A stretch of 64,000 nt of DNA from positions 34,809-98,808 of the forward strand of contig DHKP01000028.1 in NCBI GenBank assembly GCA_002404865.1, read 5' to 3'. The notes beneath the pieces were generated by a model, which saw only the letters and a list, made by a program, of their open reading frames with translations, searched no databases and was not told the DNA's origin. The DNA comes from Bacillales bacterium UBA4691 (GTDB lineage: Bacteria; Bacillota_I; Bacilli_A; RFN20; CAG-826). The position numbers and the translations under genes are program-made. Below, piece by piece: positions 25,158 to 29,425 of this stretch (within the stretch, counting starts at the first letter, position 1; the number at the start of each line of letters is the position of its first letter).

Positions 25158-25244
25158 GATTGAGAACCTCCAAGTTCCAAAGAATATTATTCCTTTCTCT
25201 CACTTTCTTTGCAACTCTATCGACTTACTTCTAAAATAAATCGT

Positions 25245-25940
25245 ATGGATTTTAGTGGTTGGGAAAAACTTTCTCTTGTCGATTACGATGACCGTATCGC
25301 GACAACTCTATTTGTAGCGGGCTGCAATTTGCGTTGCCCGTTTTGTCATAATAGCGAGCTTGTATTGCATCCAAAGAATAATCCTACGATTTCTTGGGAA
25401 GAGATAATGGAATATCTTGAGCGGAGAAAAGGCGTGCTAGATGCAGTAGTTATCACAGGCGGAGAGCCGACACTGATGAATGACCTCATCGAGAAGATGC
25501 AAGATATTAAAAAACTCGGCTATTTAATTAAATTGGATACCAATGGCACAAATCCAGATTTATTGATGGATTTATCTAATCTAGGGTTAGTGGACTATAT
25601 TGCCATGGATATTAAGAATTCTTTGCCAAAATATGGCGTTACCTCTGGGAAGCCATTGCTTGACACTTCTAAGATAGAAGAATCGATTCGCTTTTTGCTT
25701 AATGGCGTGATCGATTATGAATTCCGAACCACAATCATTGATGAATTCCATACTAGTTTAGATATGGAACGAATCGGGCAATTGATTGAAGGGGCAAAAC
25801 GTTATTACCTTCAACGCTATATCGATAATGAGTATTGCATTGAGCATGGCTATCATGAAGTTTCAAAAGAAAAGGCTCTTGTTTTCAAAGCAATCGTAAG
25901 CAAATACGTTAAACAAGTATCTTTGCGCGGCTATGAATAA
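25245..25940 (+). CDS. nrdG: Anaerobic ribonucleoside-triphosphate reductase activating protein (radical SAM)
   Basis: CNLRCPFCHN cluster and VITGGEPTL. The ATG at 25245 is preferred over the TTG at 25209, but the start is uncertain. Confidence 0.85.
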   Translation: MDFSGWEKLSLVDYDDRIATTLFVAGCNLRCPFCHNSELVLHPKNNPTISWEEIMEYLERRKGVLDAVVITGGEPTLMNDLIEKMQDIKKLGYLIKLDTNGTNPDLLMDLSNLGLVDYIAMDIKNSLPKYGVTSGKPLLDTSKIEESIRFLLNGVIDYEFRTTIIDEFHTSLDMERIGQLIEGAKRYYLQRYIDNEYCIEHGYHEVSKEKALVFKAIVSKYVKQVSLRGYE

Positions 25941-25969
25941 AAAATAACGCTAGCTGACCTAGCGTTATT
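25941..25969. terminator. Bidirectional hairpin between nrdG and the trxB-like gene
   Basis: AAATAACGCTAG-CTGAC-CTAGCGTTATTT. It overlaps the stop codon of the minus-strand gene. Confidence 0.7.
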
Positions 25970-26879
25970 TGATGGAATATAAGTATTTATTTGCGCTTAA
26001 GCTCGCAATCGCGCCATCTCCGCATGCGGTAGTGAGTTGACGCACTTTTTTATCGGTGCAATCGCCAGCGGCAAATAGCCCTTTCGTCTTTGTGCTCTTG
26101 TCTTCATCCACTTTGATGAAACCGTGATTCAATTCGACTAAATTTGAGAATCTAACGTTATCAGGAACTTGCCCAATCGCAACAAACGCGGCTTTTGCTG
26201 GGATTTCTATCATTTCTTTGCTTATCGTATTTTCATAGCGGACTGCCGTTAAGGAAGTCCCATCCCCGATAAATTCTTTTGAATTCATATTGTGATAAAC
26301 GGTTACGTTCTTTAAAGAAAGAAGCGCACTAACGAGAACTTCATCCGCGAAAAAGCGATCGAATAAAGTAACGATATTGACATGGGAACAAATGCTAGCG
26401 AGCATCAAGGCGTATTGGAGAGCGCTATTGGCGTCCCCGATGACGGTTACGTCTTGATTGCTATAGAAGGCCCCGTCGCATACGGCGCAATAGGAAATTC
26501 CGTGCCCTAAATATTTGTCTTCGCCCTCGATATTCAAATGACGATGTTTGACGCCTGTTGCGATAATGACGGCCTTTGCCTTGTATTCGGCATATTGGCC
26601 TTTAATGATAAAGGTATCGCCTTCTTTTTGAATGGATAACGCTTCATCGAGTTCGAAAGCCCCGCCTAAAGCGCTATATTGCTCAAACATATTATTTGAG
26701 AGTTCTAGCCCGCTGATGGATGCAATGCTTGGGAAATTCTCAACGCGAGGAGAATCTGCGATTTGGCCTCCAATCGCTTCTTTTTCGAGCAAGGTAACGC
26801 TTCTGCCTGCTCTAAGAGCATAAAGACCTGCCGTTAAAGCAGCAGGTCCTCCACCGATGATAATGATATCAGGCGACAT
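25965..26879 (-). CDS. Thioredoxin reductase-like flavoprotein with degenerate NADPH-binding motifs
   Basis: FAD fold IIIIGGGPAALTAG and redox CAVCDG. The usual GGGDSA is GDANSA and HRRxxFR is FDRFFAD. The start was set to MSPDIIII, overlapping the nrdD 3' end by 11 nt. Confidence 0.8.
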   Translation of the reverse strand: MSPDIIIIGGGPAALTAGLYALRAGRSVTLLEKEAIGGQIADSPRVENFPSIASISGLELSNNMFEQYSALGGAFELDEALSIQKEGDTFIIKGQYAEYKAKAVIIATGVKHRHLNIEGEDKYLGHGISYCAVCDGAFYSNQDVTVIGDANSALQYALMLASICSHVNIVTLFDRFFADEVLVSALLSLKNVTVYHNMNSKEFIGDGTSLTAVRYENTISKEMIEIPAKAAFVAIGQVPDNVRFSNLVELNHGFIKVDEDKSTKTKGLFAAGDCTDKKVRQLTTACGDGAIASLSANKYLYSIK

Positions 26880-29256
26880 GTCCGCCTTTGACTTTCTCGA
26901 TGTATCCGCGGATGAGAGAAGCATTCTCATACACGTCATAGCTATCGCCGTTCGGCACGATTAACGTTGGGGCTTTTGTGACACCAAATGCCAAGGTGGT
27001 TTCTTTATTGCTCATCGCATCGATGTTTTGGTAATGAATACCTTCTTTATCAAGGAGCATTTTCGCCATCTTGCAGTTTGGGCAAGTCGCAGAAGTGAAT
27101 AACATTGGCTCAGTTACTTTTGGAAGAGCATGTTCATGCTTTTCAGCGCATGTGCAGTGGTCGCCTTCTTCACTATGGAAGATGCTTGTGGATGGATCAT
27201 AGGTCTTACGATCTTTGAATTCTTGGCTCTTCCCAGCATTCCAGTTTTTCACAGGACGGTAGTAACCAGTGATACGGCTATAGACTTCAGTCTCTTTCCC
27301 ACATACTGGGCATTTCCAGACTTCCCCAGCGAGATACCCATGGTCTGGGCAGATGGAATAAGTCGGAGACATCGTGTAATAAGGGAGCTTGTAATTTTCC
27401 GCAATCTTACGAACGAGTTTCATGCAGCTTTCCCAATTTGGAAGGCGTTGACCCAAGAAAGCGTGGAAGACGGTTCCTGATGTATAGAGAGTTTGGAATC
27501 GATCTTCGATATCCAAAGCTTGGAAGATATCGCTCGTAAATCCGACAGGAAGGTGAGAGCTATTGGTGTAATAAGGGACTTCCCCAGCTTTTCCAGCTGT
27601 GATGATGTCTGGATAACGTTCACGGTCATGTTTCGCTAAGCGATAAGAGGTTGATTCGGCTGGTGTTGCCTCGAGGTTGAAGAGGTCGCCGTATTTTTCT
27701 TGGTAATCGCTTAAGCGTGTTCTCATGTGGTTAAGAACTTCGACGGTGAAATCTTGCGCGTCTTTATGAGAGAGATCGTCTTTGAGCCAACGGGCATTGA
27801 GGCAAGCTTCGTTCATACCGACTAGACCAATCGTGGAGAAGTGGTTCTTGAATGTCCCTAAGTAATGTTTGGTATACGGGTATAATCCCGCTTCAAGTAA
27901 GGTTGTGACGGTCTTGCGTTTGATATCTAAGCTTCTCGCCGCAATATCCATCATATGGTCAAGACGAGCGTAGAAATCCGCTTTATCAGTGGCTAGATAA
28001 GCGATGCGTGGCATATTGATGGTAACAACACCGATAGAACCAGTCGATTCGCCACTTCCGAAGAAGCCGCCGGATTTTTTGCGGAGCTCACGTAAATCGA
28101 GACGTAAGCGGCAGCACATAGAGCGAACATCGCTTGGCTTCATATCACTATTGATATAGTTAGAGAAGTAAGGGGTGCCGTATTTAGCAGTCATCGTGAA
28201 GAGGAGACGGTTATTTTCCGTATCGCTCCAGTCGAAATCTTTGGTGATGGAGTAAGTTGGGATTGGGTATTGGAAGCCGCGCCCATTCGCGTCGCCTTCG
28301 ATCATGACTTCGATGAAGGCCTTGTTGATCATCGCCATTTCTTTCTTGCAATCGCCATAGGTGAAGTCCATTGGCTTTCCACCGACAAGCGCTGGAAGAT
28401 TTGCCATATCATCAGGAACGGTCCAATCTAATGTGACGTTGGTGAATGGCGCTTGTGTGCCCCAACGAGACGGAGTGTTCACGCCATAAATAAAGCTTTG
28501 GATGCATTGCTTGACTTGTTTGTAATCAAGATTGTCCGCTTTGACGAAAGGGGCTAAGTAGGTATCAAAGCTTGAGAAAGCTTGAGCACCTGCCCATTCG
28601 TTTTGCATGATGCCCAAGAAGTTCACCATTTGATTGCAAAGCGTCATTAAGTGACGAGCTGGAGTGGAAGTGATTTTGCCAGTGACTCCACCTAAGCCTT
28701 GTTGAATGAGTTGCTTTAGTGACCACCCAGCGCAATAGCCAGTTAGCATGCTTAAATCGTGAATGTGAATATCGGCATTGCGGTGAGCATCCGCGATTTC
28801 TTTATCATAAACTTGGGAGAGCCAGTAGTTAGCGGTGACGGCGCCAGAATTAGAAAGGATTAAGCCGCCGACAGAATAGGTGACTGTGCTATTTTCTTTA
28901 ACGCGCCAGTCGTTAAGGCGAAGATAACTATCGACAACTGCGGCATAGTTAAGTTCGGTTTTCTTGATGTCGCGGAGTTGAGCGTGTTTATTGCGATAAT
29001 CCATATAAGAACGAGCGACATCGACGTATTGAGCTTGGATCAATACGGTTTCAACGCTGTCTTGGATATCTTCTACCGCGATGATTTGATCTTTGACCTT
29101 TTTCGCAAAATCGGCGGTAACACGAAGTGCTAAAAGTTCAAGAATGTTTGGGGTGATGGTAACGTGCTCTTGATCGAAAGCACGGCCCATAGCAGCCTCA
29201 ATTTTCTTAATGTCAAAGTCGACGATTGAATTGTCTCTTTTCTTAACGCGCAACAT
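26869..29256 (-). CDS. nrdD: Anaerobic (class III) ribonucleoside-triphosphate reductase fused to a C-terminal thioredoxin/glutaredoxin-like domain
   Basis: 795 aa with an ATP-cone N-terminus, Zn ribbon CPDHG..CPVCG and glycyl-radical RITGYYRPV. About 110 extra residues follow, containing MLFTSATCPNCKMAK...KAPTLIVPNG. Confidence 0.92.
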   Translation of the reverse strand: MLRVKKRDNSIVDFDIKKIEAAMGRAFDQEHVTITPNILELLALRVTADFAKKVKDQIIAVEDIQDSVETVLIQAQYVDVARSYMDYRNKHAQLRDIKKTELNYAAVVDSYLRLNDWRVKENSTVTYSVGGLILSNSGAVTANYWLSQVYDKEIADAHRNADIHIHDLSMLTGYCAGWSLKQLIQQGLGGVTGKITSTPARHLMTLCNQMVNFLGIMQNEWAGAQAFSSFDTYLAPFVKADNLDYKQVKQCIQSFIYGVNTPSRWGTQAPFTNVTLDWTVPDDMANLPALVGGKPMDFTYGDCKKEMAMINKAFIEVMIEGDANGRGFQYPIPTYSITKDFDWSDTENNRLLFTMTAKYGTPYFSNYINSDMKPSDVRSMCCRLRLDLRELRKKSGGFFGSGESTGSIGVVTINMPRIAYLATDKADFYARLDHMMDIAARSLDIKRKTVTTLLEAGLYPYTKHYLGTFKNHFSTIGLVGMNEACLNARWLKDDLSHKDAQDFTVEVLNHMRTRLSDYQEKYGDLFNLEATPAESTSYRLAKHDRERYPDIITAGKAGEVPYYTNSSHLPVGFTSDIFQALDIEDRFQTLYTSGTVFHAFLGQRLPNWESCMKLVRKIAENYKLPYYTMSPTYSICPDHGYLAGEVWKCPVCGKETEVYSRITGYYRPVKNWNAGKSQEFKDRKTYDPSTSIFHSEEGDHCTCAEKHEHALPKVTEPMLFTSATCPNCKMAKMLLDKEGIHYQNIDAMSNKETTLAFGVTKAPTLIVPNGDSYDVYENASLIRGYIEKVKGGHVA

Positions 29257-29397
29257 AACATAGTCCTCCTGAAATTTGATGTGGGTTGGGGTTAGAAAGC
29301 CATAGGGTCTTAGCTTTGAAGAACCCTAGCTACAACCATTCTATACTACGAACAGAGTAAGACGCTTCTCATATGCTCTATTCGCCCTGCGCAAGAT

Positions 29398-29425
29398 ATC
29401 ATACCGAGCAAAATTCTAATTTCAA
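29398..29425 (-). promoter_or_regulatory. Putative nrdD promoter (TTGAAA-16 nt-TATGAT), implying a leader of about 135 nt
   Basis: Hexamers read on the minus strand. No experimental support. Confidence 0.35.

What the first reader, a model, noticed from the sequence alone, without database searches (positions are those of the whole stretch)
26872..27111. Class III ribonucleotide reductase carries a fused CxxC redoxin domain
After the glycyl-radical motif (RITGYYRPV), where NrdD normally ends, the ORF continues through a His/Cys-rich linker (EEGDHCTCAEKHEH). A thioredoxin-fold-like module follows: MLFTSATCPNCKMAKMLLDKEGIHYQNIDA...KAPTLIVPNG...YENASLIRGYI, with a CPNC active site and a cis-Pro-like TLIVP. 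Some NrdD subclasses are known to use thioredoxin- or glutaredoxin-type reductants instead of formate. A covalent fusion would hard-wire that choice.
Basis: partly seen in the sequence, partly recalled or inferred. Interest (0 to 1): 0.6.

Follow-up and report, generated by a model that had tools for sequence, protein, structure and literature searches.

The report
Anaerobic ribonucleotide reductase with built-in redoxin
The only enzyme this gut bacterium has for making DNA building blocks carries its own small thiol-redox domain on a flexible tether, followed by a coupled reductase gene; the layout is real, shared by many uncultured gut anaerobes, listed once in the literature and never tested.

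Summary
The ORF at 26869-29256 (-) encodes a 795-aa class III ribonucleotide reductase (ATP-cone plus NrdD core, ending about residue 687). A disordered, Cys-bearing linker of about 30 residues follows (GDHCTCAEKHEH), then a 78-residue glutaredoxin/NrdH-like thioredoxin-fold domain with a CPNC site. That domain scores above the Pfam Glutaredoxin cut-off and models as β-α-β-α-β-β-α.

The core has the thiol-type signature: C175, an MCCR finger loop with a second Cys, and E529. It also keeps the Met used in formate chemistry.

An 11-nt overlap couples the gene to a thioredoxin-reductase-like flavoprotein that has a CAVC site but no NADPH motifs. nrdG lies convergent beyond a shared terminator.

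The fusion forms one well-supported clade. It includes more than 1,000 protein clusters and at least 80 species genomes (Bacilli, Christensenellales, Oscillospirales, some Spirochaetota). In 72 of 80 loci a TrxR-like gene lies directly downstream.

Among 56 sampled Bacilli genomes with the fusion, 52 had no match to other RNR classes and 48 no match to pyruvate formate-lyase.

Most likely reading: a hard-wired relay from reductase to fused redoxin to the active-site cysteines. The literature I could search lists one Grx:NrdD fusion in a 2018 table, without study. Verdict: a new variant of a known kind, of moderate interest.

The parts
26869..29256 (-). nrdD-redoxin fusion gene, 795 aa plus stop
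   Evidence: ORF list. Pfam ATP-cone, NRDD and Glutaredoxin; NCBIfam NF006126 at 1121 bits.
28981..29250 (-). ATP-cone (residues 3-92), the allosteric on/off domain
   Evidence: PF03477, 68 bits.
27199..28896 (-). NrdD catalytic core and glycyl-radical domain (residues 121-686)
   Evidence: PF13597, 654 bits, full profile 1-562. PDB relatives 8p23, 4coi, 4u3e.
28732..28734 (-). Cys175, the bottom-face cysteine on strand βA
   Evidence: Aligns to T. maritima Cys125. Invariant in alignment A2.
28108..28119 (-). Finger-loop motif M380-C381-C382-R383 (double-cysteine type, Met retained)
   Evidence: Aligns to T. maritima SCCR 328-331. MCCR in 118 of 118 and 74 of 75 homologues.
27670..27672 (-). 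Glu529, the putative proton donor of thiol-dependent NrdD
   Evidence: Aligns to T. maritima E495 (FNIEQVPAE). P. copri formate-type NrdD has Leu here. Invariant.
27301..27351 (-). Zn-ribbon ligands C636, H639, C649, C652
   Evidence: CPDHG...CPVCG aligns to the T. maritima metal site. Invariant.
27259..27276 (-). Glycyl-radical motif RITGYY (G664)
   Evidence: Invariant.
27106..27198 (-). Flexible linker (residues 687-717) with C701 (27154-27156) and C703 (27148-27150)
   Evidence: pLDDT below 50 in both models. C701 is at least 90% conserved among close homologues. About 19 of 80 wider species loci have no linker Cys.
26872..27105 (-). Grx/NrdH-like Trx-fold redoxin domain (residues 718-795); CPNC at 27073-27084; cis-Pro P763 at 26968-26970
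   Evidence: PF00462 above cut-off. AF2 fold and Foldseek matches. CPNC invariant.
25965..26879 (-). Thioredoxin-reductase-like flavoprotein (304 aa). Has a CAVC redox site. NADPH motifs are replaced: GDANSA for GxGxxA, TLFDRFFAD for HRRxxxR.
   Evidence: TIGR01292 at 295 bits, below the 343 cut-off. Alignment to NTR 4zn0. Motif survey.
26869..26879 (-). 11-nt overlap (ATGTCGCCTGA) between the nrdD stop and the TrxR-like start, implying translational coupling
   Evidence: Read from the sequence. The same abutting or overlapping layout occurs in most of 72 related loci.
25942..25970 (-). Terminator-like hairpin with a 12-bp stem, shared by the operon and the convergent nrdG
25209..25940 (+). 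nrdG activase (radical SAM), convergent; the true start is probably the ATG 12 codons into the ORF (about 25245)
   Evidence: TIGR02495 NrdG2 at 198.7 bits against a 131 cut-off.
29398..29425 (-). Best promoter-like site upstream of nrdD (TTGAAA-16-TATGAT)
   Evidence: a consensus match only.

Best explanation
This is a self-contained, thiol-driven class III ribonucleotide reductase system.

The NrdD core reduces NTPs using a glycyl radical (G664, installed by NrdG) and a thiyl radical on the MCCR finger loop. Each turnover most likely oxidises C175 and a finger-loop cysteine to a disulfide, with E529 as proton donor, as shown for the Neisseria bacilliformis enzyme.

The CPNC redoxin domain sits on a disordered linker of about 30 residues. 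I infer that it re-reduces that disulfide, either directly or through the linker cysteines. It is in turn re-reduced by the CAVC/FAD flavoprotein translated from the overlapping downstream gene.

That flavoprotein lacks the NADPH-binding motifs, so its electron source is probably not NADPH. Ferredoxin or flavodoxin from PFOR, or NADH, are candidates.

Shown here: the domain architecture, the fold, the active-site signature, the operon coupling, the conservation and the genome context. Inferred: the direction of electron flow, the target disulfide and the donor.
For: - **Fusion and fold.**
- **Thiol-type signature.** C175, MCCR and E529 by alignment to T. maritima NrdD; Leu replaces Glu in formate-type P. 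copri NrdD. The signature is invariant in 118 of 118 fused homologues.
- **Coupled reductase.** An 11-nt overlap leads into a TrxR-like gene with CAVC. A TrxR-like gene lies directly downstream on the same strand in 72 of 80 species loci.
- **Single origin.** The fused clade is monophyletic (support 100) and separated from unfused nrdD-nrdG sisters, which have no redoxin or TrxR neighbour.
- **Genome context.** In this genome the fused enzyme is the only RNR found, and the fused domain is the only Grx-like domain. Of 56 sampled genomes with the fusion, 52 gave no class I/II RNR match and 48 no PFL match. By contrast, 10 of 15 genomes with distant NrdDs (27-29% identity; subtype not checked) have PFL.
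- **Precedents in the literature.** NrdD2 uses thioredoxin and NrdD3 uses an NrdH-like redoxin (PMC9176816, Table 1; PMC9669993). A fused Grx on NrdB is a working RNR reductant (PMC6187632).
Against: - There is no biochemistry for any member of this clade.
- Met380, needed for the formate-dependent thiosulfuranyl route in E. coli NrdD, is retained. Burnim et al. (PMC9669993) note that MCCR enzymes hold the components for either reductant.
- This particular genome does encode PFL.
- The fusion arose once, so its link with the Cys/Glu signature is a single evolutionary event. The unfused sisters carry the same signature.
- The active site of class III RNRs is buried. Whether a globular redoxin can reach it was not testable here (poor full-length model, no coordinates).
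Confidence: 0.65

Rival explanations
1. Formate remains the turnover reductant, through the Met380-Cys175 thiosulfuranyl route. The fused redoxin has an accessory role: it keeps the Zn-ribbon or active-site cysteines reduced so that the glycyl radical can be installed, or it repairs them after oxygen exposure.
For: - Met380 is retained in nearly all members.
- PFL is present in this genome.
- The redoxin is attached right after the glycyl-radical/Zn-ribbon domain.
- From memory, unchecked here: Padovani et al. 2001 reported that thioredoxin or DTT was needed to activate E. coli NrdD.
Against: - 48 of 56 sampled genomes with the fusion gave no PFL match.
- The extra Cys and Glu529, which define thiol-dependent NrdD2, are invariant.
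- A dedicated, translationally coupled reductase conserved in 72 of 80 loci suggests stoichiometric electron flux rather than occasional repair.
Confidence: 0.15
2. The fused domain acts as a classical glutathione-dependent glutaredoxin.
For: The best Pfam hit is Glutaredoxin. The closest solved sequence is a glutaredoxin, 2klx.
Against: - Only the N-terminal half of the Grx profile matches (positions 2-37 of 60).
- The C-terminal half resembles thioredoxin/MJ0307 (APTL...NGD).
- No Glu-Cys ligase match was found in the genome, which is 84% complete.
- A TrxR-like partner gene is coupled to it, as for NrdH-type redoxins.
Confidence: 0.05
3. The apparent fusion is an assembly or frameshift artefact that joins two separate genes.
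For: A few short database entries show the redoxin as a separate small ORF.
Against: - Those entries are contig-end fragments or homopolymer frameshifts.
- The continuous frame recurs in 1,019 protein clusters and in 80 species genomes from independent projects, with conserved linker length.
Confidence: 0.01

Closest known systems
Neisseria bacilliformis NrdD (NrdD2 subtype) with thioredoxin and thioredoxin reductase (Wei et al. 2014, as summarised in PMC9669993 and PMC4493059)
   Same: Class III RNR with a second finger-loop Cys and an active-site Glu. A disulfide is formed on turnover and reduced by a Trx-fold protein that a TrxR recycles.
   Different: There the loop is SCCR (no Met) and the redoxin is a free housekeeping thioredoxin using NADPH. 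Here the loop is MCCR, the redoxin is fused to the C-terminus, and the dedicated reductase lacks NADPH motifs. Core identity to the related T. maritima enzyme is low (phmmer E 3e-42).
Methanosarcina barkeri NrdD3 with an NrdH-like redoxin and ferredoxin disulfide reductase (Wei et al. 2015; cited in PMC9176816; not readable here)
   Same: A class III RNR served by a small Grx-like redoxin, with a dedicated, non-NADPH reductase encoded nearby.
   Different: NrdD3 lacks the Glu and has a QCCR loop (PMC9669993). Its redoxin is a separate protein. From memory, its reductase is an Fe-S FTR-type enzyme, not a flavoprotein of the TrxR family.
Facklamia ignava Grx::ATP-cone::NrdB fusion (Rozman Grinberg et al. 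2018, PMC6187632)
   Same: A Grx-type domain covalently fused to an RNR component, shown to act as the RNR reductant. The same paper's Table S1 lists one 'Glutaredoxin:NrdD' protein (Lachnospiraceae bacterium TWA4, NrdDd, WP_082039398.1).
   Different: That fusion is class I, N-terminal, on the radical-generating subunit, and glutathione-linked. The NrdD case was only listed, not analysed. I could not check whether it belongs to this clade.
C-terminal cysteine-pair tails of class I and II RNRs (PMC5704485; PMC9669993)
   Same: A flexible C-terminal segment with a Cys pair that shuttles electrons from the redoxin to the buried active-site disulfide. The linker here carries CxC or CC in most members.
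   Different: The linker Cys is missing in about a quarter of species loci, so it cannot be obligatory. Its role is untested.
Clostridial ferredoxin-dependent flavin thioredoxin reductases (FFTR; PMC10880999; PDB 6gna)
   Same: A TrxR-family flavoprotein with CxxC that lacks the GxGxxA and HRRxxxR NAD(P)H motifs.
   Different: By sequence the partner here is much closer to NADPH-type TrxRs (4zn0, E 4e-61) than to FFTR (6gna, E 3e-30). It forms its own clade with a conserved GDAN[ST]A...TLFDxFFxD signature. Its donor is unknown.

Membership tests
Class III ribonucleotide reductase (NrdD) | NRDD catalytic domain above the curated cut-offs | tested here: met
   PF13597 at 654 bits (cut-off 26); NF006126 at 1121 (548); TIGR02487 at 547 (326).
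Class III ribonucleotide reductase (NrdD) | C-terminal glycyl-radical motif (RxxGY) and Zn-ribbon | tested here: met
   RITGYY at 661-666; C636/H639/C649/C652; aligned to 4coi.
Class III ribonucleotide reductase (NrdD) | Cognate radical-SAM activase NrdG encoded nearby | tested here: met
   TIGR02495 at 198.7 bits (cut-off 131) at 25209-25940.
NrdD2 (thiol/thioredoxin-dependent subtype, Wei et al. 2014) | Third cysteine adjacent to the thiyl cysteine on the finger loop | tested here: met
   MCCR 380-383 aligns to T. maritima SCCR.
NrdD2 (thiol/thioredoxin-dependent subtype, Wei et al. 2014) | Active-site glutamate | tested here: met
   E529 aligns to T. maritima E495; Leu in formate-type P. 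copri NrdD.
NrdD2 (thiol/thioredoxin-dependent subtype, Wei et al. 2014) | Formate-independent, redoxin-dependent turnover | not testable with these tools
   Needs anaerobic enzymology. The retained Met380 leaves formate use possible (PMC9669993).
Glutaredoxin (Pfam PF00462) | Profile score above the gathering cut-off, with a CxxC site | tested here: met
   30.5-33.7 bits against 22.9; CPNC at 725-728. Only profile positions 2-37 of 60 are matched.
Classical glutathione-dependent glutaredoxin (e.g. TIGR02181 Grx3) | Equivalog-level score and glutathione dependence | tested here: not met
   25-29 bits against a cut-off of 90. No Glu-Cys ligase match in the genome.
NrdH-redoxin (TIGR02194) | Family score above cut-off | tested here: not met
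   20-24 bits against a cut-off of 85.75. The fold is NrdH-like (4hs1, TM 0.69). The motif is CPNC, not the CVQC I recall for NrdH.
MJ0307-type small thioredoxin (TIGR00411) | Family score above cut-off | tested here: not met
   Best NCBIfam hit for the tail, but 27-31 bits against a cut-off of 92.75.
NADPH-thioredoxin reductase (TIGR01292), for the downstream gene | Equivalog score; FAD fold; CxxC; GxGxxA and HRRxxxR NADPH motifs | tested here: not met
   295 bits against a cut-off of 343. FAD motif and CAVC are present. GDANSA and TLFDRFFAD replace the NADPH motifs.
[quoted passage not shown] | Lacks NAD(P)H motifs AND clusters with clostridial/cyanobacterial FFTRs; ferredoxin as donor | tested here: inconclusive
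   The motifs are absent (met). It is closer to NTRs than to 6gna (E 4e-61 against 3e-30). The donor is not testable here.

The most novel reading that the evidence does not exclude
Class III RNR in this clade has convergently rebuilt the full class I/II-style electron relay in one operon. The relay would run: a pyridine-nucleotide-independent (ferredoxin- or flavodoxin-fed) TrxR-like flavoprotein, then the fused CPNC redoxin, then a swinging linker cysteine pair (C701/C703) that threads into the buried barrel, then the C175-C381/382 disulfide.

In these reduced-genome gut anaerobes, all DNA precursor synthesis would then depend directly on the low-potential ferredoxin pool rather than on formate or NADPH.
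Probability: 0.2. Interest if true: 0.75.

Novelty: new variant of a known kind. Interest (0 to 1): 0.55.

Why it matters
Only three redoxin- or formate-dependent class III RNR systems have been studied biochemically. Burnim et al. 2022 (PMC9669993) note that most double-cysteine enzymes (83%) carry MCCR, and so hold the parts for either formate or thioredoxin use.

A natural covalent fusion of an MCCR+Glu core to a redoxin, with a dedicated reductase in the same operon, is a Rosetta-stone argument that this large group runs on thiols. It also offers a convenient single-polypeptide system for testing that.

In 52 of 56 sampled Bacilli genomes with the fusion, no other RNR class was found. These are small-genome, uncultured gut and rumen bacteria. 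The operon is therefore probably essential and defines how these organisms pay for DNA synthesis.

The partner flavoprotein's loss of NADPH motifs points to a TrxR lineage with an unknown electron donor.

Tried and rejected
- **Full-length AlphaFold2 model** (51-sequence alignment). Mean pLDDT was 69.5, active-site segments were below 50, and no coordinates were exposed, so the reach of CPNC to the active site could not be measured.
- **Free-standing or split versions of the redoxin.** I looked for these as independent Rosetta-stone evidence. The 21 small hits were contig-end fragments or frameshifted genes, for example an A-run frameshift in L116.
- **Separate redoxin or TrxR genes next to the unfused sisters.** None were found; those loci are plain nrdD-nrdG operons.
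- **Obligatory linker-Cys shuttle.** Weakened: about 19 of 80 species loci have no linker Cys.
- **Classical Grx, NrdH, YruB or MJ0307 membership.** All equivalog scores are far below their cut-offs.
- **Rfam scan of the nrdD leader.** No credible match.
- **Papers.** Wei et al. 2014 and 2015 were not held in the library.
Full report
**Observation.** The minus-strand ORF at 26869-29256 encodes 795 residues. Pfam finds an ATP-cone (3-92), the NRDD domain (121-686, 654 bits over the full profile) and Glutaredoxin (718-753, 30.5 bits; 33.7 bits when the tail is scanned alone, against a cut-off of 22.9). NCBIfam's ribonucleoside-triphosphate reductase equivalog NF006126 covers residues 2-687 at 1121 bits.

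**Anatomy of the extension.**
- The glycyl-radical motif is RITGYY (G664). A conserved helix follows, up to about residue 686.
- Residues 687-717 are predicted disordered, with pLDDT below 50 in two independent models. They carry H700-C701-T-C703 and further histidines.
- Residues 718-795 model as β-α-β-α-β-β-α at pLDDT 84-88.
- Foldseek against the PDB returns thioredoxins and NrdH redoxins. M. tuberculosis NrdH (4hs1) gives TM 0.69 and rmsd 2.3 Å over 79 columns.
- By sequence the N-terminal half looks like glutaredoxin (2klx). The C-terminal half (FGVTKAPTLIVPNGD) looks like thioredoxin/MJ0307 (1fo5).
- No equivalog model (Grx3, NrdH, YruB, MJ0307) comes near its cut-off. The domain is best described as a minimal Grx/NrdH-like Trx-fold redoxin with a CPNC site.

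**Catalytic core.** phmmer alignment to T. maritima NrdD (4coi/4u3e) puts C175 on Tm C125, M380-C381-C382-R383 on Tm SCCR 328-331, and E529 on Tm E495 (FNIEQVPAE against FNLEATPAE). In the formate-dependent Prevotella copri enzyme (8p23) the Glu position is Leu and the loop is MGCR (PMC11226230). By the published criteria (PMC4493059; PMC9669993) this is a double-cysteine, Glu-containing (NrdD2-type) enzyme that keeps the loop methionine. Burnim et al. say that this combination carries the components for either formate or thioredoxin.

**Operon.**
- The nrdD stop overlaps by 11 nt (ATGTCGCCTGA) the start of a 304-residue thioredoxin-reductase-like flavoprotein.
- That protein has the FAD fold and a CAVC redox pair. 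It reads GDANSA where NADPH-type enzymes have GGGxSA, and TLFDRFFAD where they have HRRxxxR (alignment to 4zn0). It scores 295 bits on TIGR01292 against a cut-off of 343.
- By the motif criteria of PMC10880999 it is a non-NADPH reductase. Yet it is closer in sequence to NADPH enzymes (E 4e-61) than to clostridial FFTR (6gna, E 3e-30).
- A hairpin with a 12-bp stem (25942-25970) ends the operon and faces the convergent nrdG (TIGR02495, 198.7 bits).
- The best promoter-like site is at 29398-29425.
- The leader matches no Rfam family.

**Distribution and evolution.**
- A search seeded on residues 686-795 found 1,019 protein clusters. The 118 full-length fused proteins examined (of the 120 listed) all have MCCR, the Glu and CPNC, and 117 have at least one linker Cys.
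- A scan of species-representative genomes kept 80 loci with the complete fusion. Their record titles name Bacilli MAGs, Erysipelotrichaceae, Christensenellaceae, Oscillospiraceae, Acutalibacteraceae and Sphaerochaetaceae.
- A few titles (Alistipes, Bacteroidales, Gammaproteobacteria) are probably mis-binned contigs.
- In 72 of 80 loci a TrxR-like gene follows directly on the same strand.
- The partners fall into two clades. About 47-49 are the motif-less 'TLF' type seen here. About 22 keep GGGxSA, with either HRR (NADPH-like) or QNL/QDL.
- In a sample of 300 genomes of the same class, 56 have the fused form (66-84% identity, coverage to about residue 790). Fifteen have an unfused relative at about 49% identity.
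- Those unfused sisters also have MCCR and the Glu. They sit in plain nrdD-nrdG operons with no redoxin or reductase nearby.
- On a FastTree tree rooted on the sisters, the fused proteins form one clade with support 100. The TLF-type partners map to a derived subclade containing Christensenellales and Bacilli. The fusion therefore arose once.
- Across the 80 loci the linker Cys is absent in about 19, including basal lineages.

**Genome context.**
- The window's genome is 1.47 Mb and 84% complete. It has one NrdD and no match to class I/II RNR. Six congeneric genomes at 96-99% completeness also have no class I/II match.
- It has one canonical thioredoxin (WCGPC). It has no other Grx-like protein; the second hit is Spx.
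- It has no Glu-Cys ligase match, and it has a PFOR.
- A second TrxR-like gene is present and also lacks the NADPH motifs.
- The genome does encode pyruvate formate-lyase.
- Across the class sample, 48 of 56 fused genomes gave no PFL match and 52 of 56 no class I/II RNR match.
- Of the 15 unfused-sister genomes, 1 has PFL and 12 have another RNR.
- Of 15 genomes with distant NrdDs (27-29% identity; subtype not checked), 10 have PFL.
- Relatives are not independent, so these are descriptive counts, not tests.

**Mechanism.**
- Best-supported reading: a hard-wired relay from the reductase flavoprotein (CAVC) to the fused redoxin (CPNC) to the active-site disulfide between C175 and a finger-loop cysteine, with E529 as proton donor.
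- This follows the N. bacilliformis precedent, and the F. ignava NrdB-Grx precedent for fused redoxins (PMC6187632).
- The linker of about 30 residues could span up to roughly 100 Å if extended. My own estimate is that this is ample for a subunit of this size.
- Actual access to the buried site is unproven.
- The common linker CxC/CC pair may act like the class I/II C-terminal tail (PMC5704485). It cannot be obligatory.
- The donor to the flavoprotein is unknown.
- The main rival is that formate still drives turnover (Met380 and PFL are both present here) and the redoxin only maintains or activates the enzyme. I rate that at about 0.15.

**Novelty.** In the searchable library, the only mention of a Grx-NrdD fusion is one row in Table S1 of Rozman Grinberg et al. 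2018 (Lachnospiraceae bacterium TWA4, NrdDd), with no analysis. The following were not described in any paper I could find:
- the size and single origin of the clade;
- its MCCR+Glu signature;
- the Cys-bearing tether;
- the coupled reductase without NADPH motifs;
- its status as the only RNR detected in most host genomes sampled.

The underlying kinds (redoxin-dependent class III RNR, redoxin-RNR fusions) are known. This is a new variant rather than a new category.

**Limits.** The primary NrdD2 and NrdD3 papers were not readable here. The full-length model was poor. All functional statements are inference from sequence, fold and context.

Noticed in passing
window 25965-26879 (-); also G000 C11:1395-2342 (-): Both TrxR-family genes found in this 84%-complete genome lack the GxGxxA and HRRxxxR NADPH motifs. 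The nrdD-linked one reads GDANSA/TLFDRFFAD. The second reads GEDEHA/LFFDKAIS and keeps a CATC site. No canonical NADPH-thioredoxin reductase was found, although a normal WCGPC thioredoxin exists at C4:7554-7838.
   Followed up: partly
loci L017-L096 (downstream TrxR-like genes): The reductases coupled to fused NrdD fall into two clades. One has about 49 members with a conserved GDAN[ST]A...[TA]LFDxFFxD signature. The other has about 22 members that keep GGGxSA with either HRR (NADPH-like) or QNL/QDL. So the predicted electron donor differs between lineages while the fusion stays constant.
   Followed up: partly
window 29257-29425 (-): The nrdD leader is about 135-170 nt long with predicted hairpins. 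It has no Rfam match (best hit E 0.46, to a miRNA model). I did not see an obvious NrdR box.
   Followed up: partly
G000 C29:29059-30624 (-): A 521-aa open frame with weak NRDD and PFL-like matches and a C-terminal VVRVTGYLVKR glycyl-radical-like motif. From memory, it resembles the YjjI family of glycyl-radical proteins of unknown function.
   Followed up: no
protein P0034 (2.7-kb metagenome contig): A 633-aa protein joins a transketolase to the same linker and CPNC redoxin tail (...KASAPKVTKVMLFTSPTCPNCK...). It is probably a chimeric assembly, but it could be a second fusion partner for this redoxin.
   Followed up: no
loci L019, L023, L024, L079: Near-identical Bacilli-type nrdD-redoxin operons sit in bins titled Bacteroidales, Bacteroidaceae, Alistipes shahii and Gammaproteobacteria. 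Mis-binning is most likely. The 66-84% core identity across Bacilli, Clostridia and Spirochaetota also suggests lateral spread of the operon.
   Followed up: no
window 25942-25970: A perfect 12-bp-stem hairpin lies between the convergent TrxR-like and nrdG genes. It looks like a bidirectional terminator in a 24-nt intergenic gap.
   Followed up: no
G000 C15:83-571 (+): The only other 'Glutaredoxin' Pfam hit in the genome looks like an Spx/ArsC-family regulator (CSSC motif) with an unusually long, Cys-rich C-terminal extension (162-aa open frame).
   Followed up: no
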